Translations under genes and position numbers: made by a program
Origin: Candidatus Vogelbacteria bacterium
GTDB taxonomy: Bacteria > Patescibacteriota > Minisyncoccia > Phycocordibacterales > XYD1-FULL-46-19
Direction: 5' to 3'
DNA length: 64,000 bases
Assembly: GCA_021414225.1 (NCBI GenBank)
Contig: JAIOOX010000002.1
Coordinates: forward strand, 236,597 to 300,596
Shown: positions 32,697 to 55,709 of the stretch, one piece after another
Layout of the letters: every line of letters begins with the position of its first letter
Position numbering within the stretch: the stretch's first letter is position 1
Notes under the pieces: generated by a model
What the model saw: the letters and a program-made list of their open reading frames with translations, nothing else
Databases searched by the model: none
Told to the model about the DNA's origin: nothing

Positions 32697-32741
32697 ACCT
32701 ACTATTTTATACCTAAATTAATAATATAAAAAGAAGTAGTT

Positions 32742-32772
32742 CAGCCTTTTTACAGGCGCGCTTTTGTGACCC
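32742..32772 (+). repeat. direct repeat DR-A (32 bp, 2 mismatches to DR-B at 36236-36267)
   Basis: CAGCCTTTTTACAGGCGCGCTTTTGTGACCC here versus CAGCCTTTTTAAAGGCGCGCTTTTGTGAGCCC at 36236. They are in the same orientation and bracket a ~3.5-kb segment. Confidence 0.6.
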
Positions 32773-32881: not shown

Positions 32882-32910
32882 TTGACTAAATAGATATTAT
32901 TGTATATAAT
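32882..32910 (+). promoter_or_regulatory. perfect-consensus sigma70 promoter (TTGACT-17-TATAAT) for GC-rich gene 32900-33286
   Basis: TTGACT at 32882-32887, a 17-nt spacer and TATAAT at 32905-32910. If the TSS is just downstream, translation probably starts at the internal Met (MGTIYCLMNHG) rather than at the ORF-track start. Confidence 0.5.
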
Positions 32911-33286
32911 ACTGGTCAGGATTTTTGGTGATTACGTTACTAACTCCATAACAGAAAGGGACGACATGGGTACCATTTATTGCTTGATGAATCATGGTCC
33001 TGGTTTAACAGACTTGATTCGCCAGATCCTCTTCGATACTGCTCAGGAAATGGTCCGCCGTGACCTGAAACGGAAGCTGGTCAGAAATGACGACTTCGAG
33101 GGGGTGGTTACCACGAAGAAAGACTGGGCCCGAATGGGAGGAGTCAGTGGATACGTCTTCAGCGCCGTCGTTGAATCCGAGGCGGGGGTGAAAAACAACG
33201 TCTCCTACCTGGTACGACCGGCCGATCTCGAAGACCTTGAGGGTGGACGTGTCAGTAGTGTAAATTACCACTCGATGCTTAATTGA
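32900..33286 (+). CDS. hypothetical protein, GC-rich gene
   Basis: The ORF is clearly GC-richer than its flanks (...GTIYCLMNHGPGLTDLIRQILFDTAQEMVRRDLKRKLVRNDDFEGVV...). Its own promoter and terminator bracket it, and the true start is probably the internal ATG near 32966. Confidence 0.4.
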   Translation: MYIILVRIFGDYVTNSITERDDMGTIYCLMNHGPGLTDLIRQILFDTAQEMVRRDLKRKLVRNDDFEGVVTTKKDWARMGGVSGYVFSAVVESEAGVKNNVSYLVRPADLEDLEGGRVSSVNYHSMLN

Positions 33287-33511: not shown

Positions 33512-33811
33512 TTATTCAAGTAGCCTTTTAAAGACTTCTTCATATCCTGTATAGCCACGATTACCACGGTTCCCAGGATTTCCTGGTGAACCGGGACTTC
33601 CTGGGTTCCCTGGATTTCCAATATTCCCATAATTTCCGAGCCTCTTATCTAAAACCATATCTCCTTCGAGTTCACCAACGTATTGACCAGTTAATTTGTG
33701 CACATGGGTACCATTAATTTGACCCACAGGATTACCCTTCATGTCGTAAATGAATTTATCCCTGTAGAAACCTATAGCACTCCCCGATTGTTCATATAAA
33801 TAATTTGTCAT
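33512..33811 (-). CDS. small hypothetical protein with short collagen-like G-N/S-P-G repeat tail
   Basis: The ORF (ORF-track 33512-33856) was trimmed to the Met 7 nt downstream of the RloC-like stop. It contains GNPGNPGSPGSPGNPGNRGNRG. Confidence 0.3.
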   Translation of the reverse strand: MTNYLYEQSGSAIGFYRDKFIYDMKGNPVGQINGTHVHKLTGQYVGELEGDMVLDKRLGNYGNIGNPGNPGSPGSPGNPGNRGNRGYTGYEEVFKRLLE

Positions 33812-33818
33812 AGATAGA

Positions 33819-36029
33819 TTAAATATTATAGGTTGCATAATGGTCTTTATCAACACTTTTTATCACTTCAAAGAAATTTTTAATTCTTTGTGAACTTGCC
33901 TGCAAGACAGTTACATCATATTTATCAAACCCTAAAAATTCATGTGAACCATGATTTATAAATCGATACATCACTTTCTCTTCTTGAGCGACTTCTTGTT
34001 CTATAACATCCTTGTCTGCGGGATTTGAGTTGTCTAGTCTATATTTTTTGTATTTGGCGTACAGCTGAGCAAGTTTGCTTTTCAGGTCGCCGTGTCCATA
34101 CTTAAAGTGTAGAAATGTTTCCAAAGCTCGTCTGAGTAAGTTTGCGGCCAAAATAGCATCGTCTAAGTCTATACTGTCCTTCACTTCATTCAATTTTGTT
34201 ATTGAATATAAATAGTCAGATCTATATTTTTTAAGGTTGTCATCCAACTCTTGAATTGTTGAGCCGGTATTCTTTAGTGAGATTTGAAAAAATTTAACTA
34301 AATCGTCTCTAATTTTTCCGTCTTTTCTGTAACTTTGGAGAAGGTGGCCAAAAATATCTAAATTGTGAGAAAGAATGAAATATTGTCTGTCAGGACGACT
34401 TTCAATTTCTCCCGATAGTATTGCAAACACCTGAAAAAGTGAGTCAGAATCAAGACTTGAAACAGGATCATCAATGACTATAACGGAATTCTTATCAATC
34501 TGATTATCTTCATCATTGATACTTAAAAGAAAATATGCCAAAGCTAAGAAGTTTCTCTCTCCCTCACTCAAGGAACTGAGTTCACACTTAGCACCATCAC
34601 GTTTGAGCACATAACCAACTTCTCCATCTGAATCATCCAAAGATATTTCTTTATATGGGAAAGTCGATTTGAGTAGTCTGTTTATTCTATCTGCAGGAAT
34701 TTGAACATTTTTAGCCACCTTTTTAAGCTCTTTTAAATCTTCTTCAATTAGTTTTATATCTCCTTCGTGCTTTGACTTTTCTGCTTGACAGTCTTCATAC
34801 TCCTTCTTCTTTGAGGTGTATTTTATATATGCCCTTGCGACATAATCTTTTTCGATACTCCAAGCAATTGAACCAACGTCGAAAGTTTCTTCTTCGACAA
34901 AAAGATCATCAAAGGTTATTTTTTCGACTATTTTTTTTATGTCTTTTCTCTTTTTTTCCACTCTAGATCGTAATGTGAGAAATAGAGTCTCTAAGGTTTC
35001 CTTTTTAGTAACGTAAAAACTCTCGCATATTCCAATCTCACTTATTGCGCTCTCAGTTTTTGCACTTATTCCATCCAAGGCGTTACTGAGTTCCATTACA
35101 TCTTCAGAAAAATGTTTCAATAACTCGTCTTCGTTGGTAATTTCTGACTCACAAAAAAGACAGTGGTTTAACTTTTCGGTTTCGTTTAGTTTATGAATAC
35201 CAATTCCTTCCCTTACCCATTTTTCTTCTAGACTTCCGTCAGAATATTTTGCTAGTCTTTTTGATTCTTTGTAAACAGGAATAAAAGTGAGGTATTTATT
35301 AATTTTATCTGTTTTTTCAACCACCCAATCATTCCATTTTTTCAAAGTCTTATACTCTCTCTCCTTTACAGATAGATTAGATAAAGTAGATATTCTTTGT
35401 TTTAGTTCAGATTCCTCACTTATAAAGTCATCAACTTGTTTTCCTTCGATGATTGCTTTTGATAGCCACTCTATTCTTTTTTCAAAAGAAGATTTGATAT
35501 AAGAATTATATAAACCATTACTTTCTACCACAGGATCTTTCCTTAAATGTCCAATTCCACTTATTTTTCGTATGTTTTCAGAAACTTCTTTTGATATGTC
35601 ATCGTACTCGTTCTTGCAGGCCTTTAGTTTACTTAGCTTTTCCTTTGCACCTTCAAGTTCCTTTTCTTTTTTTGAAAAATCAACACCAGCGGAACCAATT
35701 GCTACAACATATGGGAGATGGGTTTGGTCAATTGCCTCTTTTATATAGTCTTCATTAAAAACGCGAATCTTATCAGTGAAACCTGAAAGTTCACTGTGTT
35801 TCTTAGCGCCGGTATCAAATTGAGTAGTAAATTGTGCACCGTTAATTTTATCTTCAGAATTAATTATCCCTTTTTCATATGACCTAATTATTCTAGAAAC
35901 TATTGTTTTTCCAGAACCATTCCATCCCAAAATAATATTTACCTTGTCGTGAAAATCTCCAACGGTCGCATCCCAGATGAAGTTCTTAAATGCACCACAT
36001 TTGATATTTTGGATTTTCTTTATTTTCAC
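33819..36029 (-). CDS. RloC/PrrC-like ABC-type ATPase (AAA_13-like) with coiled-coil CxxC hook and C-terminal candidate anticodon-nuclease motif
   Basis: An N-terminal P-loop (ILGWNGSGKTIVSRI) is followed by a long coiled coil containing HCLFCESE (CxxC, Rad50/RloC-like zinc hook). The ABC signature LSEGERNFLALAYFL, Walker B/D-loop VIVIDDPVSSLDSDS and an H-loop (FILSHN) follow. The C-terminal ~170 aa contains LLRRALETFLHFKYGH...FINHGSHEF, an R-x3-E...H arrangement like the PrrC/RloC ACNase triad. Confidence 0.6.
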   Translation of the reverse strand: MKIKKIQNIKCGAFKNFIWDATVGDFHDKVNIILGWNGSGKTIVSRIIRSYEKGIINSEDKINGAQFTTQFDTGAKKHSELSGFTDKIRVFNEDYIKEAIDQTHLPYVVAIGSAGVDFSKKEKELEGAKEKLSKLKACKNEYDDISKEVSENIRKISGIGHLRKDPVVESNGLYNSYIKSSFEKRIEWLSKAIIEGKQVDDFISEESELKQRISTLSNLSVKEREYKTLKKWNDWVVEKTDKINKYLTFIPVYKESKRLAKYSDGSLEEKWVREGIGIHKLNETEKLNHCLFCESEITNEDELLKHFSEDVMELSNALDGISAKTESAISEIGICESFYVTKKETLETLFLTLRSRVEKKRKDIKKIVEKITFDDLFVEEETFDVGSIAWSIEKDYVARAYIKYTSKKKEYEDCQAEKSKHEGDIKLIEEDLKELKKVAKNVQIPADRINRLLKSTFPYKEISLDDSDGEVGYVLKRDGAKCELSSLSEGERNFLALAYFLLSINDEDNQIDKNSVIVIDDPVSSLDSDSLFQVFAILSGEIESRPDRQYFILSHNLDIFGHLLQSYRKDGKIRDDLVKFFQISLKNTGSTIQELDDNLKKYRSDYLYSITKLNEVKDSIDLDDAILAANLLRRALETFLHFKYGHGDLKSKLAQLYAKYKKYRLDNSNPADKDVIEQEVAQEEKVMYRFINHGSHEFLGFDKYDVTVLQASSQRIKNFFEVIKSVDKDHYATYNI

Positions 36030-36235
36030 ATTTATATTCTAACAAAAATAACCTCAAATGAAGTATATTTTGCATACTTCTCGTGCTAGCTGTTGTTGGT
36101 GATTTTCTATTTGTTGTGGTCCACAATAATTTGTTTTTCGTCAAAAACAAATTTTCCAGACCCGGCCTCGACTTTTTTGTTGCTACAAAAACATGTCTCC
36201 GGCTTCACAAAAGCGAAAAAGCCTGAGGCAGTCCA

Positions 36236-36267
36236 GCCTTTTTAAAGGCGCGCTTTTGTGAGCCCAT
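36236..36267 (+). repeat. direct repeat DR-B (partner of DR-A); embedded in a larger inverted repeat CACAAAAGCG...CGCTTTTGTG
   Basis: See DR-A. The 10-bp arms CACAAAAGCG (36209-36218) and CGCTTTTGTG (36252-36261) flank it. Confidence 0.6.
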
Positions 36268-36443
36268 TGTACTTTGAATGGAACACCATGAAAAGCACCG
36301 TCCTTAGATGGGAGGAGGTTTTCGGAAGCTTGGGTAATTTGCGAGAATTAGTCCTTACTTAGAGGGATTTTCAAGCTTTCGGAATCATTTGAACTTACCC
36401 AAGTGGTATTAGAACAAGAAAGCACGTATCTATGCTTGATTAC

Positions 36444-36464
36444 GTATACCCCCTAGGGGTATAC
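36444..36464 (+). promoter_or_regulatory. candidate CsoR operator (GC-rich palindrome) overlapping csoR promoter
   Basis: GTATACCCCCTAGGGGTATAC is a perfect 21-bp palindrome 9 nt upstream of the csoR ATG. It resembles known CsoR operators (ATACCC-N-GGGGTAT type). Confidence 0.5.
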
Positions 36465-36472
36465 TAGTAGAT

Positions 36473-36745
36473 ATGAGACAAGATATTAAAACAAAAGCCG
36501 CCCGCCGCTTAAAAATCGTTGAGGGTCAGGTGCGGGGACTACAGAAAATGGTTGAGGAGGAAAAATATTGTATAGACATCATCACCCAAGCTTCTGCTAT
36601 TAAGGAAGCATTGACTGGTGTGGAAGATTTAATACTTGAAAATCACCTCACTACCCACGTTATACATCAAATAAAACACGGTAAGGAGCAACAGGCCGCA
36701 ACCGAAATACTTAAAGTTTATAAGCTAGCCCAACGCAAAAAATAA
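36473..36745 (+). CDS. csoR: CsoR/RcnR-family metal-sensing transcriptional repressor
   Basis: A DUF156 four-helix fold (RLKIVEGQVRGLQKMVEEEKYCIDIITQASAIKEAL) with conserved Cys/His ligand positions (C-x...H-x3-C pattern). Confidence 0.8.
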   Translation: MRQDIKTKAARRLKIVEGQVRGLQKMVEEEKYCIDIITQASAIKEALTGVEDLILENHLTTHVIHQIKHGKEQQAATEILKVYKLAQRKK

Positions 36746-36748
36746 TTT

Positions 36749-37372
36749 ATGTATACATGCCCCATGCACCCAGAAGTAGTGAGCGATAAACCGGGCAAAT
36801 GCCCGAAGTGTCATATGGACCTCGTACCGCAAAACTCAACGCCAAAAGTCCACCATATGACCGACGACAAAGGCCTTGGAAATCTCACGTGGAAAAGCTA
36901 CATGCCCCTTATTGCTATTGGAGCCGTTCTTCTCCTTGCATCTGTTACCATTTCAATTCACGATGCTAATTTAGGTGTCTTTGCAATTGAAAAGAGCATG
37001 TCCTATTTCATGATTGGGTTCTTCCTTACGTTTGCCACTTTCAAACTGATGGACCTACCCGGTTTTGCACACGGGTATCAAACCTATGACCTCTTGGCGA
37101 CAAAAGCGCCGTGGTATGGATATGTCTATCCGTTTATAGAATTATTCTTTGGGCTAGCAATGATACTTATACCGTTCTCTCGTGAACTCTTAGTCGCAGA
37201 GTTCGTTGTAATGGCATTTAGTGGTCTTGGGGTAGCAATCAAAATTGCTAAGAAAGAGGAGTTTATGTGTGCGTGTCTCGGTACGTTCCTAAAAGTTCCT
37301 CTCACGAAAGTAACTTTGATTGAAGATTTTGGAATGGCGGCACTTGCAGGGATAATGTTTTTCTTAATGTAG
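36749..37372 (+). CDS. membrane protein with N-terminal heavy-metal-binding motif (MYTCPMHPE...CPKCHMDL), putative Cu-handling protein
   Basis: The YTCPMHPEV...GKCPKCHM motif is typical of the Cu/Ag-efflux-associated heavy-metal-binding domain. Four TM helices follow (DoxX/MauE-like). It sits directly downstream of csoR. Confidence 0.5.
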   Translation: MYTCPMHPEVVSDKPGKCPKCHMDLVPQNSTPKVHHMTDDKGLGNLTWKSYMPLIAIGAVLLLASVTISIHDANLGVFAIEKSMSYFMIGFFLTFATFKLMDLPGFAHGYQTYDLLATKAPWYGYVYPFIELFFGLAMILIPFSRELLVAEFVVMAFSGLGVAIKIAKKEEFMCACLGTFLKVPLTKVTLIEDFGMAALAGIMFFLM

Positions 37373-37373
37373 T

Positions 37374-37745
37374 ATGCAATTTCTAAAACAAACAATTTTA
37401 ACTCTCGCACTCGTTGCCTTTGTAGGAATGGCGGGTTTTGGAATGTTTGCAATGACCGGACATCACCACGAGCCGGGGTGTCCATTCATGCCGGGAGAGC
37501 AAGCAATATGCGAGATGAATATCTTTGACCATATTTCCGCTTGGCAAAGTGCGTTTACAGGAGTTTTGCCGTCCATTTTTATACTTGTTCTTATAGCCGC
37601 TTTATTCTTTGTACATTGGTTTAACTACGACAAACCGCCCGACTTGCGAGGCAAGGTTGGTCCTAGGAGTAGTCCCGGTTTAAACAGACCTAATCTATAC
37701 CAAGAACTATTCTCTAGCGGCATACTTAACCCAAAAGCACCCTAG
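37374..37745 (+). CDS. small membrane protein with His/Cys/Met-rich segment
   Basis: GHHHEPGCPFMPGEQAICEM lies between two TM helices, inside the copper cluster. Confidence 0.35.
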   Translation: MQFLKQTILTLALVAFVGMAGFGMFAMTGHHHEPGCPFMPGEQAICEMNIFDHISAWQSAFTGVLPSIFILVLIAALFFVHWFNYDKPPDLRGKVGPRSSPGLNRPNLYQELFSSGILNPKAP

Positions 37746-37783
37746 CCACTTGTAATCTCTCTTATTAATTAATCTTAAAATAC

Positions 37784-38203
37784 ATGCAAAAAAATACAGG
37801 AATTATTATCGCAATTGTTACTCTCATTGTAGGTCTCGGACTTGGTTATGTCGTAGGTACAAACAAAGCTCCTACGGCCCCACAAAGCGCCGCAGGGGGT
37901 CATATGATGCCTGACGGCTCAATGATGGGTAATGGCGGTGGCTCTATGAGCATGGCCGAAATGATGGCTTCAATGAACGCTGAACTGAACGGTAAGACAG
38001 GCGACGAGTTCGATAAGGCATTTATCAGTGAAATGATAATGCACCATCAGGGGGCGGTAGAGATGGCGCAATTGGCTTTGAAGAACGCTAAGCACGCCGA
38101 GATTAAAACTCTGGCAAACGCAATTATCTCTGCACAAAATAAAGAAATTGCAGATATGAAAGCGTGGCAAGAAGCATGGTATGGGAGCGAGACCAACAAC
38201 TAA
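37784..38203 (+). CDS. DUF305 family protein with Met-rich N-terminal segment (copper-resistance associated)
   Basis: DUF305 blocks (FDKAFISEMIMHHQGAVEMAQLAL; KTLANAIISAQNKEIADMKAWQ) follow an MMPDGSMMGNGGGSMSMAEMMASM Met-rich motif of the kind seen in Cu(I)-binding periplasmic proteins. Confidence 0.7.
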   Translation: MQKNTGIIIAIVTLIVGLGLGYVVGTNKAPTAPQSAAGGHMMPDGSMMGNGGGSMSMAEMMASMNAELNGKTGDEFDKAFISEMIMHHQGAVEMAQLALKNAKHAEIKTLANAIISAQNKEIADMKAWQEAWYGSETNN

Positions 38204-38276
38204 TTAAAAGTAGATAAGGTAAAAATGGCCCTGCAAATTGCGGGGTCATTTTGTTTATTGGGCTAATCCGAGAACA

Positions 38277-39272
38277 CTAAAGCGATGGGTGTTGCCCGTC
38301 TGGCATATCTAATCCCATTTCTCGGACGTAATCGCGGAGTTTTCGATTTTTATGAACGATATCTTTTTCAAACTTATCAATTTTTTCTATCAAGCGATTA
38401 TCAGTTGCCGGATTGGCAATGGCCCTTGCTTCAACAAGAAGTTTATTTGCTCGACGAAAACGCTGGAATGAGGGCATTTTTGTCGCAAGGTTGTAAATAG
38501 TATGTGCTTGTTCCGATGGCTTATTCGCAAGTTTGAACTCTACAATTGCTTTCTCAAAATACTGAATACATTTGTCGCGAGACAGGTTAATTTTTTTGCG
38601 CTCTTCGCGACGATAAAGATAAAGGTCTAGGTTCCACCGACGAACGAAATGTGTATTTGCAATCTTGGCTTTAAATTTTCCGCCTTTCTGAAAATCGAGT
38701 TTATCAGTCAGATATTTGTGGCTGTATACATCTCCAATCGTGGAGAATGCATGACCTCGAAACTCGTGGTCCAGTCCCTGTTCTGCTCTTTCAATAACAA
38801 GTGCAAGGGTCGTGTCTGCCTCACGTTCAAGCTCTTTACGCTTTTCGCCTAACGCTTCATATTCTTTCTTATCTTTCTCGGTCGAAAAACCTATCCATCC
38901 AAAGACCTCTGAAGCAAGCATCAAGTTTTTTTGCCTGTAGATTGCATCAGATAATTTAAGTCCAAGAAAGAAACATTTTTTACCCAACAGGTAGCTTTGT
39001 ACACTTTCGTTTCCCGTCCGCTTAGCAATTTCTATCCCCTCATTTGCGACAGCGAGTAGTTTGTCTCCCTCGGTGACATGGTCTAAAACTCCTAGCATTG
39101 CAAGGAGTACATTAATCCGAACAGAGGGGTCTTGCGTTGTTATTGTCTCAAGCAAGCTTCTCGCTTCATCATATTCGCCGAGGTTATACAGCTCGACTGC
39201 TTTTTTCAGTTTATTTTGGTCTGGCATAGTATTCACGTTGTCGAAATCGCGCGATACGAGCTGGAATTTCAT
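38277..39272 (-). CDS. hypothetical protein with N-terminal TPR-like helical repeat; overlaps upstream DUF4238 gene by 62 nt
   Basis: A 331-aa ORF (...AVELYNLGEYDEARSLLETIT...) with no recognisable catalytic motif. It is co-directional with and overlaps the DUF4238 gene in a different frame. Confidence 0.4.
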   Translation of the reverse strand: MKFQLVSRDFDNVNTMPDQNKLKKAVELYNLGEYDEARSLLETITTQDPSVRINVLLAMLGVLDHVTEGDKLLAVANEGIEIAKRTGNESVQSYLLGKKCFFLGLKLSDAIYRQKNLMLASEVFGWIGFSTEKDKKEYEALGEKRKELEREADTTLALVIERAEQGLDHEFRGHAFSTIGDVYSHKYLTDKLDFQKGGKFKAKIANTHFVRRWNLDLYLYRREERKKINLSRDKCIQYFEKAIVEFKLANKPSEQAHTIYNLATKMPSFQRFRRANKLLVEARAIANPATDNRLIEKIDKFEKDIVHKNRKLRDYVREMGLDMPDGQHPSL

Positions 39273-40128
39273 GCCTTAAAAAGCGTAGTAGGAAAACGGG
39301 GTCAAGTGGCAATCTTCGGAACCAGCGCCTCTTCAACTTTGGCGAGTTTGCAATGAAGTATTGATGTGAGTATCCGTAGACCATTCGATTGTCATTGTGC
39401 ACCATATCTTCGGTAGCAAACAAATATCCACGAACATTGTTTATCCAACTGAAACAAACAGAGATTTCAGGTGAGAGTGGCATTCGCACTTCGACCCCTC
39501 TCTGTCCAAACGCAGGAGGGAAAAAACGTTGAAATTGCATCTGACTGTTGAATAGGTATGCGGGTGCATCTGACGTAATGAAAGACACGCGTTTATTTTT
39601 CGTGCAGAGAAATGCAACATTCATTTTAGATAGGATTTCCGCAATTTTAGGGGCCATTTCTATTACGCTCATTTTGTGAGCATCTTTCTTTGCTTCCTCC
39701 CATTCCTTAGAAGATTTTGCCGGTGCTCCGTGCACTGTTTCGAGTTGCTTTGCCCAACCAATCATTTGGTCCATTTGGTTCTCAACGTGTTCTTTCTGCT
39801 TCAAGGTTCGCTGGAGCATGGCGGCGACAAACGCACAAAAAATAGCGTGCTCGTAAGGTGTAAGCGGGAGCTTGTGCTTAATCTTTTTTTCAAATATGTC
39901 GGCATACTCACTTTCAAGTTGCGCCAACGACTTTTCAATAGAATAGTCACCTTGGAATGTATAAACATCTGTTTCCGTGAGCACGCTACGGATATTCTGC
40001 CTTTTGCCTCGCTTACTTTTACGCTCAAAAATCCAAACACACGGCCCGAAGTTGCTCGGTACTTTTGGGTCTACAAACTGCTTTAAATAACATTTCGGAA
40101 TGGTGTGCTGGTTCTTCGGGTTTGACAT
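39211..40128 (-). CDS. DUF4238 family protein (Rst_DUF4238-like anti-phage candidate)
   Basis: The N-terminal hallmark H-T-I-P-x-x-Y-L-x-x-F (NQHTIPKCYLKQF) and an internal FITSDAP block are characteristic of DUF4238. Confidence 0.6.
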   Translation of the reverse strand: MSNPKNQHTIPKCYLKQFVDPKVPSNFGPCVWIFERKSKRGKRQNIRSVLTETDVYTFQGDYSIEKSLAQLESEYADIFEKKIKHKLPLTPYEHAIFCAFVAAMLQRTLKQKEHVENQMDQMIGWAKQLETVHGAPAKSSKEWEEAKKDAHKMSVIEMAPKIAEILSKMNVAFLCTKNKRVSFITSDAPAYLFNSQMQFQRFFPPAFGQRGVEVRMPLSPEISVCFSWINNVRGYLFATEDMVHNDNRMVYGYSHQYFIANSPKLKRRWFRRLPLDPVFLLRFLRHEIPARIARFRQREYYARPK

Positions 40129-40183
40129 TGTCTCTATATCATAGGGTATTTGCAGAATAATAGATATTTGGCGTTAATTGGAG

Positions 40184-40320
40184 TTAGGCATTTTCAAAAA
40201 ACCTATATCTTTCAATGTATTTTCGACTTTTACGATTTTCTAAAGCCAATAAATCAAGGGTTTTGCATAAATAAAGAGATTTTAAGGTTAGGCATTTTTA
40301 CAAAACCTATATTCTGCAAG
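40184..40320. repeat. two ~30-bp imperfect direct repeats (40184-40216 and 40288-40320) in divergent intergenic region
   Basis: TTAGGCATTTTCAAAAAACCTATATCTTTCAATG versus TTAGGCATTTTTACAAAACCTATATTCTGCAAGC, 104 bp apart. They may be regulator binding sites or iterons. Confidence 0.4.
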
Positions 40321-40371
40321 CTCTTTTAGGAAAGATGCTTTTTCTAACCGTAAGAAAATGGTATAGTAATC

Positions 40372-40496
40372 ATGCGTCCCACAGTAGTCGAATAATGTAC
40401 GAGGTCTTTTGCTTCCTATGGAAGCCCAATTGCGGGCTGAAAGGGGGGCATTCGACCGCCACAATTGGTTGCCTCGTGCAATTCAGTACTGTGGGA
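40372..40496 (+). ncRNA. candidate structured non-coding RNA of unknown class (multi-helix, closed by a 12-bp long-range helix)
   Basis: P1 is CGTCCCACAGTA (40372-40383) paired with TACTGTGGGACG (40485-40496). P2 is GTACGAGG paired with CCTCGTGC, including a G-U that favours the plus strand. P3 is the hairpin GCTTCC-tat-GGAAGC. P4 is CCAATTG(CGG)...(CCG)CCACAATTGG enclosing a purine-rich CUGAAAGGGGGG loop. Only short ORFs without coding character overlap it. Confidence 0.35.
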
Positions 40497-40576
40497 CGCC
40501 GGCTCCGAGTGTCTCCCTTTTTGTATTGTCGAACAGAAAAGGGGTTGGGCTGATTACCCACCTAGTTTTATAAATT

Positions 40577-40831
40577 ATGCTCGTAGTAATTATTGTTCTG
40601 CTCTTACTACTTCTTGCAATCGCCGCCCCTGTGCAAATAATGGCGAACAAAAAGAAGTTGAAGCAAATGGACACGCTAATTGAAGCGTTCGAGGCACAAA
40701 GCTTCGAGACGCCGGAGGCAAAAGAAAATGCCAAGCGTGTGTTAAAGAAAAAGCTCGTTGGATTGAAAGCAAAGATACTTGCTGACAAGAAATCAACGGA
40801 AATCGCGGACGACAAACTCAATATTCTTTAA
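40577..40831 (+). CDS. small hypothetical membrane-anchored Lys-rich protein
   Basis: An 84-aa ORF with an N-terminal TM (LVVIIVLLLLLLAIAA) and a K/E-rich tail. Confidence 0.3.
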   Translation: MLVVIIVLLLLLLAIAAPVQIMANKKKLKQMDTLIEAFEAQSFETPEAKENAKRVLKKKLVGLKAKILADKKSTEIADDKLNIL

Positions 40832-40856
40832 GCTTAGAATAAGCTAGAATTAGAGA

Positions 40857-41525
40857 ATGATAGCGTCCCATAGTCAAAACAAGACCCTTAATCGTCTTGC
40901 AAAAATCTTAGAGTTTGTAGAGACGCAATACAGGTCACACGCGGACAAGGAAACATTCTTTTTGGGTGCCAGTGAGATTTTCCGCTTCGACCCACTTCTA
41001 AGCGATATGGATTTGCTAAAAATGGGTTTTGAGAAAATCACTGACGACACAGGGGGAAATGTAAAGATTGAGTTTCGGCAAGGATTACCCGAACGAAACA
41101 CAGCTGACCCGACCCATGTTAGTTACGAACTTTATGTTTGGTTCTATGTTGAGGACCAAAATAAGTTCAGGGACTATCAAAGCTCTGTGAGGTCAAGAAT
41201 TGAGAGAGAAACCAAGGCGGTCCAATTCATTCTCGACAGTCAGGGCTTCTTCTACCCAGAGGGTACGGGGCCAGAGAATAGGCACTCACTCAAAAGAAAT
41301 AGCAACCGTTACCAGTTGCTTTACTTGTTAGCTAAGGAAAACAGATACATTGCAACAAAGGAACTTGCGGAAAAGCTGAATGTCTCGGCTCCAATAGTGA
41401 GAAAAAGGATAGGTGAGATTAGAAACATTATCGCCAAAAAGTGGGAGTTGTCGCGTGAAGCATTGTTTGAAAGTGACAATGCTTCCGGTTACCGAGTAAC
41501 GAATGTCACTCTCCAAGAAAGCTAA
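40857..41525 (+). CDS. hypothetical protein with C-terminal winged-helix/HTH DNA-binding domain
   Basis: The C-terminus NRYIATKELAEKLNVSAPIVRKRIGEIRNII is HTH-like (DeoR/MarR-type recognition helix). The N-terminal domain is unknown. It lies upstream of the recombinase. Confidence 0.4.
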   Translation: MIASHSQNKTLNRLAKILEFVETQYRSHADKETFFLGASEIFRFDPLLSDMDLLKMGFEKITDDTGGNVKIEFRQGLPERNTADPTHVSYELYVWFYVEDQNKFRDYQSSVRSRIERETKAVQFILDSQGFFYPEGTGPENRHSLKRNSNRYQLLYLLAKENRYIATKELAEKLNVSAPIVRKRIGEIRNIIAKKWELSREALFESDNASGYRVTNVTLQES

Positions 41526-41668
41526 AGAGGTATACCTCACCGAAACTACTACGGCTATAGCTGTTAACAACTTCGCAGAGAACTAAGCAAACAAGGGATT
41601 TTAGGTTTTCTCGTTCCGTACGCACGAGGGATTGCGGAGGTACGGGGTGGCTTCAATAGAGTTAGGGC

Positions 41669-41866
41669 ATGGTATCGTTGCCCGATTTTAAAAAAGCACT
41701 TGGACCTCTTGGCGACAAACTCACAGAAAAAGAGATTGAGCGTCTCAATATTCTTTCAGCTCAACTTGCTGGTTCTCTTTTCAATATGTGGAGCCGAAAA
41801 CTAAAAGAGAGTAGGCAGAATGAGAAACCAATAATTTATGGAAACGACCAAATACGCAATAATTGA
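41669..41866 (+). CDS. small hypothetical protein overlapping recombinase start (possible directionality factor)
   Basis: A 65-aa ORF ending 29 nt inside the recombinase ORF. It has no known domain. Confidence 0.25.
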   Translation: MVSLPDFKKALGPLGDKLTEKEIERLNILSAQLAGSLFNMWSRKLKESRQNEKPIIYGNDQIRNN

Positions 41867-43547
41867 CTGTCGCGTTAGTGACCCGCAACAGTTGAAAGGT
41901 GGAAGCTTGGAAGACCAAGAGGTTATTGGTCGTGCAACAGCAATGCGCTACAACGCAACAGTTGCGCATGTTTTTAGAAAACCACATTCAGCAACAACTA
42001 CAGAAAGAGATGATTTGGATGAAGTCATAGATTTTATTAAGAAATATCCTCATCAAATTCATTACTATATTTTTAAATGCATTGACCGATTTACCCGTGC
42101 CGGCTATCCCGAATACGAAAGAAGAAAAGCAGAATTAGAAAAACTAGGAGTTCAAATTATTGACTCCTACGGCGTAATTCAGCCGATACAAAACACACTC
42201 GACCACCTTGGTCAAAAATATAAATGGAGCATGTATTCTCCAAGTGAAATTGCTGAAATGATTTCGGCATATCAAGGAAAAGCAGAAGCAAGAGAGATTT
42301 TAACTCGAATGGTAGGTGCCGAAATCCGTCTTGTGCAAGAGGGGTTTGCTGTAAGACGCGCACCTGATGGATTACATAACAAGCGTATTTTTATTAATGG
42401 AAAAGATAGGGTCATTAGAGAAGCCGGAGAAAAAGCTCATTATTTTCAAAAGATGTATGAACTCCGAGCAGATGGTATTGATGATACGCAAATCGTCAAC
42501 ATTTTAAATGCCACAGGTTTCAAAACAAATATCTATACACGGTGGGATAGGAGTGACCCAGAACATCCTCGAAAAATTGGAACCAGAGGCGGTAAGGTTC
42601 TTACTGTAAAGCAGATGCAACGATATTTACTCCAAACAGAGTATGCCGGTGTAAGTTGTGAGAAGTGGAATAAACACAAGCCGGTCAGAACGCAGTACTT
42701 TGACGGCATTGTTTCTATAGACACTTTCAATCGAGCCAATCGTGGAAAAGTTTACATAAAAGTATCAGAGGGTGACGAGATTGAAGTGCTCTACAACTAC
42801 TCTCCTTGGGGCCGTGTAAAGCGTCTAAGAGACAATCCGATGTACCCATGGAAATGTATAGCGTGTCCTTTCTGCAATAAATCAATGCTCGGTAGTCCGT
42901 CTACTGGAAAGTCGGGTGCTAAGTTCCATGGGTATCATTGTGGTGGTTCAAAATCAGGCGACAGAGCACATGAATATTTCCGTCTTGATAAGAAAACTTT
43001 TGAGAGTAATGTGAAAAATTACTTAGACAGTTTGAAATTCGAGGATGGATTTTTAGCAGGATTGGAATTGCACCTACTTAGCGAATATCGAGAAAGAGAA
43101 AAAGAAGTTGTACTCGAATCTTCTGCAATAAGCCGAACGGTATCTGATTTAAAAGCAGAGTTGGCCCAAAAGTTGGAAGCATTCGGTTTTGCTGAAAGTC
43201 CAATCACTAGGAAAATGATTGAACAGCAAATTGCTGAACTGGATGAACAGATAAAGGGAGCAGAGAGCCAACGAATGGAAATTGAAGTAAATGAGAAGAG
43301 TATCCGTGTCTTTGTACGCTATGCAAAATACGTAATGGAACACCCGGCGGAAATCCTTACAGAAGCTTGTGATTTACAGGGTCGCCGTGCTCTTTTGGGT
43401 CTGTTCTTTGAACAAACCCCGACCTATAACGAAATACTTAATGGAACACCAAAATTAACGGCTCTTTTCAAGCTTTCTGAAGAGTTTAAGGGTAATAAAA
43501 CCCAACTGGTGACCCTACGGGGAATCGAACCCCGATTTAAGCCTTGA
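41838..43547 (+). CDS. large serine recombinase (phage-integrase type resolvase/invertase family)
   Basis: An N-terminal resolvase catalytic domain (YAIIDCRVSDPQQ...) is followed by a recombinase domain, a zinc ribbon (CIACPFCNKSMLGS...HGYHCGG) and a C-terminal coiled coil. The last 41 nt are antisense to tRNA-Glu. Confidence 0.85.
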   Translation: METTKYAIIDCRVSDPQQLKGGSLEDQEVIGRATAMRYNATVAHVFRKPHSATTTERDDLDEVIDFIKKYPHQIHYYIFKCIDRFTRAGYPEYERRKAELEKLGVQIIDSYGVIQPIQNTLDHLGQKYKWSMYSPSEIAEMISAYQGKAEAREILTRMVGAEIRLVQEGFAVRRAPDGLHNKRIFINGKDRVIREAGEKAHYFQKMYELRADGIDDTQIVNILNATGFKTNIYTRWDRSDPEHPRKIGTRGGKVLTVKQMQRYLLQTEYAGVSCEKWNKHKPVRTQYFDGIVSIDTFNRANRGKVYIKVSEGDEIEVLYNYSPWGRVKRLRDNPMYPWKCIACPFCNKSMLGSPSTGKSGAKFHGYHCGGSKSGDRAHEYFRLDKKTFESNVKNYLDSLKFEDGFLAGLELHLLSEYREREKEVVLESSAISRTVSDLKAELAQKLEAFGFAESPITRKMIEQQIAELDEQIKGAESQRMEIEVNEKSIRVFVRYAKYVMEHPAEILTEACDLQGRRALLGLFFEQTPTYNEILNGTPKLTALFKLSEEFKGNKTQLVTLRGIEPRFKP

Positions 43548-43581
43548 GAAGGCTCCGTCCTAACCGTTAGACGATAGGGCC
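43507..43581 (-). tRNA. tRNA-Glu (anticodon CUC)
   Basis: Reverse complement: GGCCCTA-TC-GTCT-AACGGTTA-GGAC-G-GAGCC-TTCTCAA-GGCTT-AAAT-CGGGG-TTCGATT-CCCCG-TAGGGTC-A-CCA. It folds into a cloverleaf with a 7-bp acceptor stem, GTTCGATTC T-loop, anticodon CTC and encoded CCA. Confidence 0.8.
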
Positions 43582-44731: not shown

Positions 44732-46471
44732 CTAATCTGGGTTTTCGATCACTTTTATTTTCTCGGCCAAGTATTTCTCAGCTTCATCTAGATTCTCGGT
44801 CATTTCAGCCATGATTTTACTCTCTTCTTTGGTTAATTTACGTTTGGTACTAGCTCTTTCAAGCATCTTCAAGTGACGCTTGGTATCACCCTTAAGAATT
44901 TGGAATACTTTATGGACTTCTTGTTCGGTGTGAACCAAGTCACGTCTTAATTTTCGTTTCAGTGAATTTAATTTTTTGATGCCAAGATAAATCATCAGCA
45001 ACAATAGGAAGAGTAGTACCAAGAAGGTGATCGCGATAGAAATTATTTGGATAGCTCTAGTACCTAGAGACATAACCTCAGATTGTTTGACGGTGATGTA
45101 GACCTTACCTGTTGGCAGACTCTTAGCTCCTGAACCACGAACCGTCTCAGCCCAAACATTCAAGATACCGACTGTTTCTATTGAATCACTACTATAGAAG
45201 AAGATTTTATCTTCGTCTGGTCTCACTAAATAACTTTTAGCTTCTTGATCTTCTGCTTGGAACCATAAGACTATCTCGCCATCAGCATAAGGAGACTTAC
45301 CCCTAATCTCTACCGAAGAGCCTACCTTAACAGCTTCTGGGTAATGTGTAATCTTAGGCGCTTGAACTTCTGGTGAGTCGACTAGGACATCTGTACTGTC
45401 ATAATTTCCAGCTCGGTCATAAACTCGCAATTCTAACTTATAACTACCAGCCGCTAGTGGTGGTAAGTTAAACTTGGTTGGTCCATTAGCAGTGGCTGGA
45501 ACCTCGATCAGTTTATCTTCGTTGTTATAAACTACATAACTCTTAACACCGGACAAAGTGTCCTTTGCCCAAGCTTCCAAAGAAATCAAGTCCTCTTCAG
45601 TCTTCTCAGCCTTAACGGTAATGTTTTCCGGAGCGTTAGTATCAATCTTTATTTTACGACTAGTGATCTTGCCCCAACCAGCCTCATTCTTTAATCGGGC
45701 ATTGAGATAGAAGGTTCCCTCAGTTAGGCCGGTCAGTATTTTTTTCTTAATCGGTGGATCATAAGTGACTGTTGGTAAGGTGCTAGCTGATTTTGCCAAC
45801 ACTAGTTGTACCGCGGTGACACCTGAAGATAATTCCCAACTAAAAGTGCCTTCTGTATTGTTATACCAACTATTTTGATCCGACATATCATCAGAAGTGA
45901 TGACTGGAGCACCAGGTACCGCCCCTTGAGAAACAACCGGTAGTGGAACTGGTGTTGTTGGCACAACTACTGGCGGTGGTACCACTACTGGAGTCACACC
46001 AGTAATCGTTACGGAAGAATCTCTAGTTTGCGATAGTACATTGGTACCATTGCCATCATCAGCCCTGATCGCCGAAGAACCAAAAGAGAGCTTAGCCACC
46101 CCCGCTTTTTTGGCTCTAAAATTTATTCGCAATGAATTACCAGCTTGACCAGAGTAACCAGGTGTTGGTAAACCACCATTGAAGTTAACGGTGCCACTGG
46201 TATTAGAAAAAGTTGGCTGTTCGACCCAAATGTTAAAGATAGAGCCAGTGTTGCTAACCGAATCAACACTGACTAAATCGGTTGGGAAATGAATCGTTCC
46301 TTCAGCACTATTGATAGCAACACCGCCAGTCGAGAGATAAACTGTTCCAGAAAAAGTTCCATTTTCAGCTACCTGGGTCTTATCTAAAATAAAATACATA
46401 TCAGCCGCCCAAACTAAACCAGGGGCTAATATTAATCCTAAAGTTAAAATTAAGTTAATTAATTTCCTCAT
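44732..46471 (-). CDS. large cell-surface protein: signal peptide, beta-rich/Ig-like extracellular region, C-terminal TM anchor and cytoplasmic coiled-coil tail
   Basis: The start was trimmed to the Met giving a signal peptide (MRKLINLILTLGLILAPGLVWA). A P/V-rich linker (PVVVPPPVVVPTTPVPLPVV) and a C-terminal TM (IQIISIAITFLVLLFLLLLMIYLGI) are followed by a K/E-rich tail. Confidence 0.55.
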   Translation of the reverse strand: MRKLINLILTLGLILAPGLVWAADMYFILDKTQVAENGTFSGTVYLSTGGVAINSAEGTIHFPTDLVSVDSVSNTGSIFNIWVEQPTFSNTSGTVNFNGGLPTPGYSGQAGNSLRINFRAKKAGVAKLSFGSSAIRADDGNGTNVLSQTRDSSVTITGVTPVVVPPPVVVPTTPVPLPVVSQGAVPGAPVITSDDMSDQNSWYNNTEGTFSWELSSGVTAVQLVLAKSASTLPTVTYDPPIKKKILTGLTEGTFYLNARLKNEAGWGKITSRKIKIDTNAPENITVKAEKTEEDLISLEAWAKDTLSGVKSYVVYNNEDKLIEVPATANGPTKFNLPPLAAGSYKLELRVYDRAGNYDSTDVLVDSPEVQAPKITHYPEAVKVGSSVEIRGKSPYADGEIVLWFQAEDQEAKSYLVRPDEDKIFFYSSDSIETVGILNVWAETVRGSGAKSLPTGKVYITVKQSEVMSLGTRAIQIISIAITFLVLLFLLLLMIYLGIKKLNSLKRKLRRDLVHTEQEVHKVFQILKGDTKRHLKMLERASTKRKLTKEESKIMAEMTENLDEAEKYLAEKIKVIENPD

Positions 46472-47346: not shown

Positions 47347-47358
47347 ATAATTTAAGTA

Positions 47359-53276: not shown

Positions 53277-53279
53277 TCC

Positions 53280-55706: not shown

Positions 55707-55709
55707 TCC

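What the first reader, a model, noticed from the sequence alone, without database searches (positions are those of the whole stretch)
33819..36029. RloC/PrrC-like ABC ATPase with CxxC zinc-hook and C-terminal R-x3-E...H motif: candidate anticodon-nuclease defence gene
**What the sequence shows**
- The 736-aa protein starts with a Rad50-like ABC ATPase head: a P-loop (GWNGSGKT) and, after the coil, an ABC signature (LSEGERNFLALAYFL), a D-loop (VIVIDDPVSSLD) and an H-loop.
- A long coiled coil separates the two halves. At its centre sits HCLFCESE, a CxxC hook as described for RloC.
- The C-terminal ~170 aa contain LLRRALETFLHFKYGH followed ~50 aa later by FINHGSHEF. This gives the R, E (four residues on) and H spacing of the PrrC/RloC anticodon-nuclease catalytic triad.

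**Inference**
- This is a tRNase-type abortive-infection or suicidal DNA-damage sensor.
- It sits in a small flanked insertion of a reduced genome.
Basis: partly seen in the sequence, partly recalled or inferred. Interest (0 to 1): 0.7.

Follow-up and report, generated by a model that had tools for sequence, protein, structure and literature searches.

The report
RloC-type anticodon nuclease defence gene
This gene encodes a clear member of the known RloC family, a Rad50-like ATPase fused to an RNA-cutting domain that is thought to cut the cell's own tRNAs to stop virus infection, so it is a sound but ordinary find in a tiny-genome (CPR) bacterium.

Summary

It is a full-length member of the RloC family:
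- Pfam AAA_13, E=5e-78.
- PADLOC candidate PDC-S06, E=5e-82.
- JGI names its homologues "wobble nucleotide-excising tRNase".
- Its hook region matches the characterised Geobacillus RloC residue for residue.

Across 104 homologues and 152 divergent representatives, the CxxC (C290/C293), R633 and S695-H696 are invariant or nearly so. E637 is nearly invariant.

- The catalytic His is H696, not H693 or H641.
- The Glu-to-His spacing is x58, outside the published x36-52 range.

The most likely function is a DNA-end- and ATP-activated anticodon nuclease that shuts down translation. This is inferred from homology and was not shown here.

The gene is mobile. An 84%-identical DNA copy lies directly after a tRNA-Glu in another genome. 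Six of ten neighbourhoods contain restriction-modification genes, five of them immediately upstream. This copy stands alone.

The 40-nt flanking repeat is real, but an insertion event could not be proven.

Verdict: a new member of a known kind, of low to moderate interest.

The parts
33819..36029 (-). rloC-like gene: 736 aa, GTG start, stop codon included
   Evidence: ORF list. Pfam AAA_13 E=4.9e-78. PADLOC PDC-S06 E=5.3e-82. 100% identical to GenBank MCE9628774.1, 'AAA family ATPase', Candidatus Vogelbacteria.
36030..36103 (-). 74-nt upstream leader/promoter region that travels with the gene. It begins with ATCACCA, which matches the 3' end of tRNA-Glu in the related locus L003.
   Evidence: blastn window vs L003: homology covers window 36103..33815 at 84% identity. 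The leader is 88.7% identical over 62 nt. The tRNA junction was compared. No Shine-Dalgarno sequence lies close to the GTG (sequence read).
35904..35927 (-). Walker A / P-loop GWNGSGKT (residues 35-42; K41)
   Evidence: K41 is kept in 103/104 homologues. It corresponds to GkaRloC K44.
34665..35693 (-). Helical (coiled-coil) insert that splits the ABC head, residues about 113-455
   Evidence: AlphaFold DSSP: long helices 113-134, 141-154, 179-194, 206-248, 267-278 | 300-306, 309-333, 340-362, 385-442. Foldseek top hits are SMC and Rad50 heads with coiled coils.
35112..35195 (-). Hook module H279-x10-C290-x2-C293-x12-H306 (CxxC itself at 35151-35162)
   Evidence: C290 and C293 are kept in 104/104 and 152/152; H279 in 95/104 and 141/152; H306 in 94/104 and 147/152. 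Same motif as GkaRloC: WVREGLGLHKGLE..CAFC...LDRHF.
34527..34571 (-). ABC signature LSEGERNFLALAYFL (residues 487-501)
   Evidence: S488 104/104, G490 103/104, E491 104/104.
34449..34484 (-). Walker B plus D-loop VIVIDDPVSSLD (residues 516-527)
   Evidence: D520 and D521 are kept in 104/104. They correspond to GkaRloC D572.
34362..34376 (-). H-loop / switch ILSHN (residues 552-556; H555)
   Evidence: H555 is kept in 104/104 and 152/152.
33822..34244 (-). C-terminal HEPN-fold nuclease (ACNase) domain, residues about 596-736
34119..34133 (-). R633-R634-A-L-E637: the Arg-x3-Glu part of the catalytic triad
   Evidence: R633 104/104 and 152/152; E637 102/104 and 151/152; N630 104/104. Aligns with R698/E702 of the GkaRloC proxy P0093.
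33942..33947 (-). S695-H696: the catalytic His with the preceding Ser
   Evidence: S695 and H696 are kept in 104/104 and 151/152. The published family motif says Ser often precedes the His.
36225..36264 (.). Right copy of the 40-nt direct repeat. Whether it belongs to the unit is uncertain.
   Evidence: the repeat finder family D1, 88% identical. The 28-nt core is found twice in the window against 0 expected by chance. Absent from L001-L003 and from viral contigs.
32733..32772 (.). Left copy of the 40-nt direct repeat. Whether it belongs to the unit is uncertain.

Best explanation
The gene encodes a bona fide RloC-family protein made of three parts:
- a Rad50/SMC-like ABC ATPase head;
- a helical arm of about 340 residues that splits the head and has a Cys-x-x-Cys hook at its middle;
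- a C-terminal HEPN-fold RNase with the catalytic residues R633, E637 and H696.

By homology with the characterised Geobacillus and Acinetobacter enzymes, the likely mechanism is as follows. The nuclease is held silent by a zinc-dependent conformation of the hook. DNA ends bind to the ATPase head, such as ends made by phage attack, restriction or other breaks. ATP hydrolysis then switches the nuclease on. The nuclease cuts tRNA anticodon loops, excising the wobble nucleotide, which halts translation in the infected or damaged cell.

What is shown here: the domain architecture, conservation of all catalytic and regulatory residues, the HEPN fold, family membership and gene mobility.

What is inferred: zinc binding, activation by DNA ends, the tRNA target and the defence role.

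This copy is a stand-alone cassette with its own 74-nt upstream region, a GTG start and no nearby Shine-Dalgarno sequence. That fits the low expression described for the family.
For: - Family profiles: Pfam AAA_13 at 264 bits against a cut-off of 36, matched to the end of the profile. PDC-S06 E=5e-82 over the full length.
- Homologue names: JGI calls them 'wobble nucleotide-excising tRNase'.
- Published RloC definition (R-x3-E-x36-52-His with Ser before the His, a central CX2C in a coiled-coil insert, 658-897 aa, frequent GUG starts): met except for the spacing.
- Hook region WVREGIGIHK...CLFC...LLKHF matches GkaRloC WVREGLGLHK...CAFC...LDRHF.
- BLASTP to P0093: E=4e-40. P0093 is 804 aa with K44, C290/C293 and R698/E702/H743, against GkaRloC's K44, C288/C291 and R692/E696/H737.
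- Invariance of the hook and triad residues.
- HEPN fold of the C-domain, as proposed for RloC and PrrC by Anantharaman et al. 2013.
- Mechanistic precedent: triad mutants abolish ACNase activity and hook mutants hyperactivate it. ATP plus linear DNA activate it. Double-strand-break inducers activate the native enzyme, which cleaves tRNA-Glu and tRNA-Gln.
- Context typical of the family: 6 of 10 neighbourhoods carry R-M genes, 5 of them immediately upstream on the same strand.
Against: - There is no experimental evidence for this protein or for any CPR homologue.
- The Glu-to-His spacing (x58) is outside the published range.
- The C-domain alone does not hit the PrrC profile.
- A hook-only profile does not recover solved Rad50 zinc hooks. 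The hook's likeness to Rad50 therefore rests on architecture, not on sequence.
- No R-M system lies in this 64-kb window.
- The literature read here gives no direct demonstration that any RloC blocks a phage.
Confidence: 0.85

Rival explanations
1. It belongs to the RloC family by descent, but it cuts a different RNA (mRNA, rRNA or other tRNAs) or is triggered by something other than DNA ends. In this reading the 'wobble-excising tRNase activated by DNA breaks' mechanism does not transfer to this CPR subclade.
For: - This subclade differs from most of the family: E-x58-H against a mode of x38-41, and C-x12-H306 against x14.
- It is only 26% identical to the GkaRloC proxy.
- HEPN domains cut many kinds of RNA.
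- The two characterised orthologues already differ in substrate preference.
Against: All catalytic, ATPase and hook residues are conserved. The insertion lies between HEPN helices, not at the catalytic motifs.
Confidence: 0.12
2. It is a generic SMC/Rad50/RecF-like DNA-repair ATPase, and its C-terminal helices have no nuclease function.
For: Foldseek and PDB profile hits are to SMC, Rad50 and RecN heads. NCBI annotates it only as 'AAA family ATPase'.
Against: - The C-terminal 140 aa have a HEPN fold with an invariant N-x2-R-x3-E...S-H motif.
- No NCBIfam DNA-repair model reaches its cut-off.
- No Mre11/SbcD-type partner lies nearby.
- The gene is patchy and mobile, and it is linked to R-M genes rather than to core repair genes.
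Confidence: 0.02
3. It is the ATPase subunit of another ABC-ATPase defence system (Lamassu LmuB, PARIS AriA, Septu PtuA or AbiL type) that needs a separate effector gene. The small beta-flower gene downstream would be a candidate partner.
For: PADLOC gives secondary hits to LmuB (1e-19), AriA (2e-13) and PtuA. A 99-aa gene starts 7 nt after the stop codon. Its Pfam domain PF21784 also occurs in the anti-phage gene Cernunnos.
Against: - Those hits are 50-60 orders of magnitude weaker than the PDC-S06 and AAA_13 hits, and they cover only the ABC part.
- The protein carries its own effector domain.
- The beta-flower gene is absent next to all nine homologues examined, and it lies outside the DNA block shared with L003.
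- The beta-flower gene has its own strong promoter-like site.
Confidence: 0.04

Closest known systems
RloC of Geobacillus kaustophilus HTA426 (GkaRloC, 804 aa) and of Acinetobacter baylyi ADP1 (AbaRloC): wobble-nucleotide-excising, zinc-responsive anticodon nucleases activated by DNA breaks
   Same: - Same order of parts: Walker A (K41 vs K44), central CxxC (C290/C293 vs C288/C291), signature, Walker B (D520 vs D572), H-loop, and the R-x3-E...S-H triad (R633/E637/H696 vs R692/E696/H737).
- Same hook-flanking motif, WVREG-G-HK...C-FC...L--HF.
- GTG start and weak translation signals.
- Lateral mobility and occasional linkage to R-M genes.
   Different: - 68 residues shorter, mainly in the returning half of the arm.
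- Glu-to-His spacing of x58 rather than x40.
- Cys-to-His306 spacing of x12 rather than x14.
- About 26% identity to the close GkaRloC proxy.
- The host is a CPR bacterium (Candidatus Vogelbacteria).
- The activity has not been tested.
PrrC anticodon nuclease of E. coli (396 aa)
   Same: ABC ATPase motifs followed by a C-terminal nuclease with an Arg-x3-Glu...His triad. It acts as a translation-disabling second line of defence behind an R-M system.
   Different: - PrrC has no coiled-coil/hook insert.
- PrrC is always embedded in a type Ic hsd locus that silences it.
- PrrC nicks the anticodon loop rather than excising the wobble base.
- The PrrC profile matches this protein only through the ABC part.
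Rad50 / SbcC / T4 gp46
   Same: An ABC head split by a long antiparallel helical arm with a central CxxC. Structure searches return Rad50 and SMC heads first.
   Different: - Rad50-type proteins have no C-terminal HEPN nuclease and work with an Mre11/SbcD nuclease partner, which is absent here.
- The arm is far shorter, about 110 residues per strand.
- A hook-only profile finds no significant sequence similarity to solved Rad50 hooks.
- The RloC hook carries two conserved flanking histidines that Rad50 is not known to have (own knowledge).
PADLOC candidate system PDC-S06
   Same: Full-length match to six of its seven profiles, best E=5e-82. The C-domain alone also matches.
   Different: PDC-S06 is a computational 'phage defence candidate' label with no described mechanism. 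On this evidence it covers the RloC family.
Other ABC-HEPN families (APECO1_4465 and ERFG_01251 types, Anantharaman et al. 2013)
   Same: An ABC ATPase fused to a C-terminal HEPN domain, found on mobile islands.
   Different: They are described as separate families. ERFG_01251 has a classical Rx4-6H HEPN motif, whereas this protein has the RloC/PrrC-type split motif. No direct comparison was made here.

Membership tests
RloC (Davidov & Kaufmann 2008) | [quoted passage not shown] | tested here: met
   All are present and conserved in 103-104 of 104 homologues.
RloC (Davidov & Kaufmann 2008) | A largely helical insert splits the ATPase domain and has a central loop carrying CX2C | tested here: met
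   The insert spans about residues 113-455. The CxxC at 290-293 lies in a non-helical segment between about 111 and about 113 helical residues. The CxxC is kept in 104/104 and 152/152. Its relative position in the insert is 0.52 here, against a family mean of 0.45.
RloC (Davidov & Kaufmann 2008) | C-proximal Arg-X3-Glu-X36-52-His motif, with Ser often before the His | tested here: inconclusive
   R633-x3-E637 and S695-H696 are present and invariant, but the spacing is x58, outside the stated range. The range was drawn from 72 proteins in 2008. In today's data the spacing runs from 36 to 63, so the deviation reflects a clade-specific insertion rather than loss of the motif.
RloC (Davidov & Kaufmann 2008) | Size 658-897 aa | tested here: met
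   736 aa. The published range is quoted.
RloC (Davidov & Kaufmann 2008) | Sequence homology to the experimentally characterised GkaRloC | tested here: met
   The OCR'd GkaRloC hook region matches residue for residue. BLASTP to the close GkaRloC proxy P0093 gives E=4e-40 over residues 3-644. The full GkaRloC sequence itself was not available.
RloC (Davidov & Kaufmann 2008) | HEPN fold of the nuclease domain (Anantharaman et al. 2013) | tested here: met
RloC (Davidov & Kaufmann 2008) | Anticodon nuclease activity that excises the wobble nucleotide; inhibition by Zn2+; activation by ATP plus linear DNA | not testable with these tools
   These are biochemical properties known only for GkaRloC and AbaRloC.
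PrrC | Compact protein of about 400 aa whose ABC domain has no coiled-coil/hook insert | tested here: not met
   The protein is 736 aa and has an insert of about 340 aa.
PrrC | Gene embedded in a type Ic hsd R-M locus | tested here: not met
   No R-M genes are found anywhere in the 64-kb window.
PrrC | Significant similarity of the C-terminal nuclease domain to that of PrrC | tested here: inconclusive
   The PADLOC PrrC profile gives E=1e-10 for the whole protein, aligned over residues 467-694, but no hit at E<=1 for the C-domain alone. No PrrC sequence or structure was available for a profile-profile or fold comparison. AFDB50 was unavailable.
Rad50/SbcC | Works with an adjacent Mre11/SbcD nuclease and has no domain after the C-terminal ABC lobe | tested here: not met
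   The neighbours are a beta-flower protein, a hypothetical protein and a CsoR operon. A 140-aa HEPN domain follows the ABC lobe.
Rad50/SbcC | Sequence similarity of the hook to solved Rad50 zinc hooks | tested here: not met
   The whole-protein profile gave marginal hits to 6zff and 1l8d (E=1e-3). A hook-only profile did not recover them.
PADLOC PDC-S06 | Match to the PDC-S06 profile HMMs | tested here: met
   E=5.3e-82, 9.4e-70 and 3.5e-58 for the top three of seven profiles.

The most novel reading that the evidence does not exclude
Two things are not described in the RloC papers read here, and my evidence does not exclude either.

1. The RloC 'zinc hook' may not be a plain Rad50-type CxxC. 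It may be a four-ligand module, H279-x10-C290-x2-C293-x12/14-H306. H306 is kept in 147/152 divergent relatives and H279 in 141/152. The Cys-to-His spacing is like that of a C2H2 zinc finger, and the model shows a small beta pair followed by a short helix. Such a module could hold zinc within one chain in the silent state and swap to a Cys4 hook between chains when active. That would give a physical basis for the proposed internal switch.

2. In this CPR-centred clade the gene is repeatedly attached to the 3' end of at least five different R-M types (DpnII, HaeIII, MmeI/Eco57I-like, type III, type I-like), often beside tRNA genes. This argues that it senses a generic product of restriction (DNA ends) rather than a specific R-M protein as PrrC does.
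Probability: 0.2. Interest if true: 0.5.

Novelty: new member of a known kind. Interest (0 to 1): 0.25.

Why it matters
The result turns a GenBank 'AAA family ATPase' into a specific, testable prediction: a suicidal tRNA-cutting defence enzyme in a Candidatus Vogelbacteria genome. It adds to the picture that ultra-small CPR bacteria keep mobile anti-phage genes despite their reduced genomes.

The family itself has been known since 2008 and is very large (14,168 cluster representatives at E<=1e-3). The gene does not change what is known.

The small gains are comparative:
- This subclade widens the accepted spacing of the catalytic motif.
- It shows unusually frequent and varied R-M linkage.
- It draws attention to two conserved histidines beside the hook, which could be mutated in the existing Geobacillus experimental system.

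Tried and rejected
1. **Solved structures by sequence.** The single-sequence search found nothing. The profile search found only ABC heads and marginal coiled-coil hits. The C-domain profile found nothing. No RloC or PrrC structure turned up.

2. **Hook-only profile against PDB.** It did not recover the Rad50 hooks, so I do not use the earlier marginal 6zff and 1l8d hits as evidence.

3. **PrrC profile on the C-domain alone.** No hit.

4. **Looking for a short PrrC-like relative among the fetched genome loci, for a direct comparison.** The candidates were full-length RloC-like proteins or truncated by a contig end.

5. **AFDB50 fold search of the C-domain, to find PrrC models.** The library was unavailable.

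6. **Empty-site search for the 'insertion'.** I used the HMBD-MauE neighbour as the query in metagenomes. It returned 27 loci, but none had a cyt-b5/csoR junction, because the metal-resistance operon is itself variable.

7. **The 40-nt repeat as a viral attP.** No match in viral contigs. No viral relatives of the protein were found either, despite a PHROG family hit (phrog_2801, E=1.6e-33).

8. **The idea that the 40-nt repeats are decayed tRNA-Glu 3' ends.** Local alignments were marginal (p about 0.04 and 0.07), and the Rfam tRNA model found nothing at E<=10. Rejected as unsupported.

10. **Strict co-variation of H279 and H306.** It was seen in the first 104 homologues but weakened in the 152 divergent representatives, so I claim only high conservation.
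Full report
**1. The observation**

The ORF exists exactly as reported. It runs from 33819 to 36029 on the minus strand, has a GTG start and encodes 736 aa. Every quoted motif is present:
- GWNGSGKT at residues 35-42;
- HCLFCESE at 289-296, which holds the only CxxC in the protein;
- LSEGERNFLALAYFL at 487-501;
- VIVIDDPVSSLD at 516-527;
- ILSHN at 552-556;
- LLRRALETFLHFKYGH at 631-646;
- FINHGSHEF at 690-698.

The gene has lower G+C (0.33-0.35) than its surroundings (0.40-0.44).

**2. Family assignment**

- Pfam AAA_13 matches at 264 bits against a cut-off of 36. The match reaches profile position 708 of 713, so the C-terminal domain is part of it.
- PADLOC's candidate system PDC-S06 matches over the full length at E=5e-82. 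LmuB, AriA, PtuA and PrrC follow far behind.
- No NCBIfam model reaches its cut-off.
- The identical protein is GenBank MCE9628774.1, 'AAA family ATPase', from a Candidatus Vogelbacteria MAG.
- JGI names many homologues 'wobble nucleotide-excising tRNase', which is the RloC name.
- An exhaustive profile search finds 14,168 cluster representatives at E<=1e-3 and 4,459 at E<=1e-30. This is a very large family.

**3. Conservation**

I checked a 36-sequence alignment reaching down to 20% identity, then 104 full-length homologues, then 152 mutually divergent representatives. The results agree.

| Residue(s) | 104 homologues | 152 representatives |
|---|---|---|
| Walker A K41 | 103 | 151 |
| C290, C293 | 104 | 152 |
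| Signature S488 | 104 | 149 |
| Signature E491 | 104 | 152 |
| D520, D521, H555 | 104 | 152 |
| N630 | 104 | 150 |
| R633 | 104 | 152 |
| E637 | 102 | 151 |
| S695, H696 | 104 | 151 |

The triad is therefore R633-x3-E637-x58-S695-H696. The published RloC definition is Arg-X3-Glu-X36-52-His with Ser often before the His, a central CX2C in a coiled-coil insert, 658-897 aa and frequent GUG starts. Everything fits except the x58 spacing. In current data the spacing ranges from 36 to 63. The mode among divergent representatives is 38-41, and x58 is typical of this subclade.

**4. Link to the characterised enzyme**

The supplement of Davidov & Kaufmann 2008 contains an OCR'd alignment of GkaRloC residues 121-540. 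GkaRloC reads ...DLQEWVREGLGLHKGLE..CAFCGNKID...LDRHFTREVEEF. The window protein reads ...LEEKWVREGIGIHKLNETEKLNHCLFCESEITNEDELLKHFSEDVMEL.

One homologue, P0093, is the same length as GkaRloC (804 aa). Its landmarks are K44, C290/C293, D574/D575 and R698-x3-E702-x40-S742-H743. These are within 0 to 6 residues of the published GkaRloC landmarks K44, C288/C291, D572 and R692/E696/H737. P0093 aligns to the window protein at E=4e-40 over residues 3-644. In the multiple alignment its N695/R698/E702/S742/H743 fall on N630/R633/E637/S695/H696.

**5. Structure**

*Full-length model.* It is confident, with pLDDT 87.2 and pTM 0.60. It has an ABC head, an insert from about residue 113 to 455 made of long helices, and the CxxC in a non-helical stretch (279-299). 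About 111 helical residues precede the CxxC and about 113 follow it. This is what an antiparallel arm with the hook at its tip predicts, but I could not inspect the coordinates, so the apex position is inferred. Foldseek returns SMC, Rad50, RecN, Lamassu and AriA heads.

- then AbiA, Csm6, Las1, LsoA, sacsin, Csx1, Cas13b and AbiV.

This agrees with the HEPN assignment of the RloC and PrrC nuclease domains. By sequence, the domain alone matches the C-terminal end of AAA_13, at E=1e-8 here and in 23 of 24 relatives (best 1e-21). It also matches DUF4145, a family of the HEPN clan, in 5 of 24 relatives, and it matches PDC-S06 at E=1.6e-14. It does not match the PrrC profile.

**6. What it is not**

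- *Not PrrC.* It is nearly twice as long, has the hook insert and is not in an hsd locus. The PrrC profile match depends on the ABC part.
- *Not a Rad50/SbcC repair protein.* It has an extra nuclease domain, no Mre11/SbcD neighbour and a patchy, mobile distribution.
- *The hook is not demonstrably Rad50-like by sequence.* A profile of the hook alone did not recover solved Rad50 hooks.

**7. Context and mobility**

The left part of the window is ordinary chromosome, with aminoacyl-tRNA synthetases, MurG, DnaB and RmuC. No R-M system is present in the 64 kb.

The 87%-identical homologue P0002 sits in an unrelated neighbourhood. DNA similarity to it (84%) covers only window 36103..33815, that is, the gene plus 74 nt upstream. 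The gene has therefore moved as a solo cassette with its own upstream region.

In L003 the cassette lies 67 nt after a tRNA-Glu(CTC). The window retains ATCACCA, the tRNA's 3' end, at the homology boundary.

| Neighbourhood | R-M genes | Other features |
|---|---|---|
| Window | none | beta-flower gene downstream; tRNA-Glu(CTC) and serine recombinase 7.5 kb away |
| P0002 (L001-L003) | none | tRNA-Glu(CTC) 67 nt upstream |
| P0009 (L016) | DpnII type II, immediately upstream, same strand | tRNA-Ser 1.7 kb upstream |
| P0023 (L017) | type I-like helicase plus methylase, immediately upstream | |
| P0027 (L018) | type III Mod and Res, immediately upstream | serine recombinase downstream |
| P0045 (L019) | TaqI, 2 kb upstream | |
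| P0013 (L047) | HaeIII plus C5 methylase, immediately upstream | tRNA-Glu(CTC) upstream; serine recombinase downstream |
| P0005 (L048) | none seen | ParE toxin nearby |
| P0031 (L049) | MmeI/Eco57I-like, immediately upstream | tRNA-Gly 80 nt upstream |
| P0053 (L050) | none | |

Six of the ten neighbourhoods carry R-M genes. In five of them the R-M genes lie immediately upstream on the same strand, often with overlapping or abutting stop and start codons. The 2008 survey found such linkage in 8 of 72 genomes. The sample here is small and was not chosen at random.

**8. The 'flanked insertion'**

A 40-nt direct repeat (88% identical) lies at 32733-32772 and 36225-36264. Its core occurs twice against 0 expected by chance. 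The repeats bracket rloC, the beta-flower gene and a 106-aa hypothetical gene.

I could not find an empty site. The repeat is absent from the related locus and from viral contigs. A resemblance of the repeats to the tRNA-Glu 3' end is marginal and is not supported by the tRNA covariance model. The repeat is therefore real but unexplained. The evidence for mobility comes from the comparison with L003, not from the repeat.

A plausible history, which is inference: an ancestral tRNA-Glu-rloC arrangement, as in L003, was split in this genome by a serine-recombinase element of about 7.4 kb. That element would span 43506 to about 36104. It carries the recombinase, an HTH protein, DUF4238, a TPR protein and a CsoR/HMBD-MauE/DUF305 metal operon, and its recombinase ORF overlaps the tRNA by 41 nt.

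**9. Mechanism**

The steps are taken from GkaRloC and AbaRloC:
- Triad mutants abolish tRNA cleavage and toxicity.
- Hook Cys mutants hyperactivate the nuclease and uncouple it from the ATPase.
- Zn2+ inhibits it.
- ATP hydrolysis plus linear DNA activate it.
- Double-strand-break inducers activate the native enzyme, which cleaves tRNA-Glu and tRNA-Gln.

Every residue involved is conserved here, so I expect the same logic to apply. The GTG start and the lack of a Shine-Dalgarno sequence near it fit the low expression noted for the family. None of this has been tested for a CPR enzyme. The substrate in a CPR host, whose tRNA modifications may differ, is unknown.

**10. Verdict**

It is a new member of a well-known and very large family, already auto-annotated as such in some databases, so interest is low to moderate (0.25).

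The points most worth keeping are:
- the widened spacing of the catalytic motif;
- the frequent and varied R-M and tRNA linkage in this clade;
- the two conserved histidines flanking the hook, which the RloC papers read here do not mention.

Noticed in passing
window 33512-33811 (-); the mechanical ORF runs to 33856: A 99-aa gene starts 7 nt after the rloC stop codon. [quoted passage not shown] It has its own strong promoter-like site (TTGATA-17-TATAAT, 33853-33825). The same Pfam domain is reported in 'Cernunnos', a single-gene anti-phage system from the Vibrio cholerae integron. The gene is not found next to any of the nine rloC homologues examined, and it lies outside the DNA block shared with L003.
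   Followed up: partly
window 35112-35195 (-), residues 279-306: Two histidines flank the CxxC: H279-x10-C-x2-C-x12-H306. H306 is kept in 147/152 divergent relatives and H279 in 141/152. The Cys-to-His spacing (12 or 14) resembles a C2H2 zinc finger, and the model shows a small beta pair followed by a short helix. GkaRloC has both histidines. The RloC papers read here mention only the CxxC.
   Followed up: partly
window 32733-32772 and 36225-36264: A 40-nt direct repeat (88% identical; core found twice against 0 expected) brackets rloC, the beta-flower gene and a hypothetical gene. The right copy lies within an imperfect palindrome (TCACAAAAGCG...CGCTTTTGTGA) and a terminator-like hairpin. No function was found. 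It is not a tRNA remnant by the covariance model, and it is absent from viral contigs and from the related locus.
   Followed up: partly
window 32966-33286 (+): A 106-aa hypothetical gene (GenBank K8Q91_02125) converges on the rloC/beta-flower pair inside the repeat-bounded segment. It has a strong promoter-like site at 32882-32910. It has no Pfam or PHROG match, and its cluster has only 3 members.
   Followed up: partly
window 36104-43581; L003 9859-10001; L047 2862-8493: tRNA-Glu(CTC) recurs next to rloC islands. It lies directly upstream of rloC in L003 and directly upstream of an R-M/rloC/serine-recombinase block in L047. In the window it is overlapped by 41 nt by a large serine recombinase ORF (41838-43547). 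The window stretch between the tRNA and rloC looks like a 7.4-kb integrated element that carries the recombinase, an HTH protein, DUF4238, a TPR protein and a CsoR/HMBD-MauE/DUF305 metal operon.
   Followed up: partly
window 38277-40128 (-): Overlapping gene pair: DUF4238 (305 aa; Pfam E=1e-29; weak PADLOC 'DUF4238-Pers' hit) followed by a 331-aa protein with a faint TPR hit. It may be a second defence-type module on the same island.
   Followed up: no
loci L016, L017, L018, L047, L049 (homologue neighbourhoods): In this clade rloC is attached to the 3' end of five different kinds of R-M operon (DpnII, type I-like, type III, HaeIII, MmeI/Eco57I-like). Stop and start codons often overlap or abut, and serine recombinases are often nearby.
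   Followed up: partly
window 50628-58547 (+): Three consecutive very large ORFs (882, 808 and 945 aa) have no Pfam match at E<=1e-4. They lie in the most G+C-rich part of the window (0.45-0.52, against about 0.38-0.42 elsewhere). Genes for Ig-like and dockerin-domain surface proteins lie upstream at 44732-48663.
   Followed up: no
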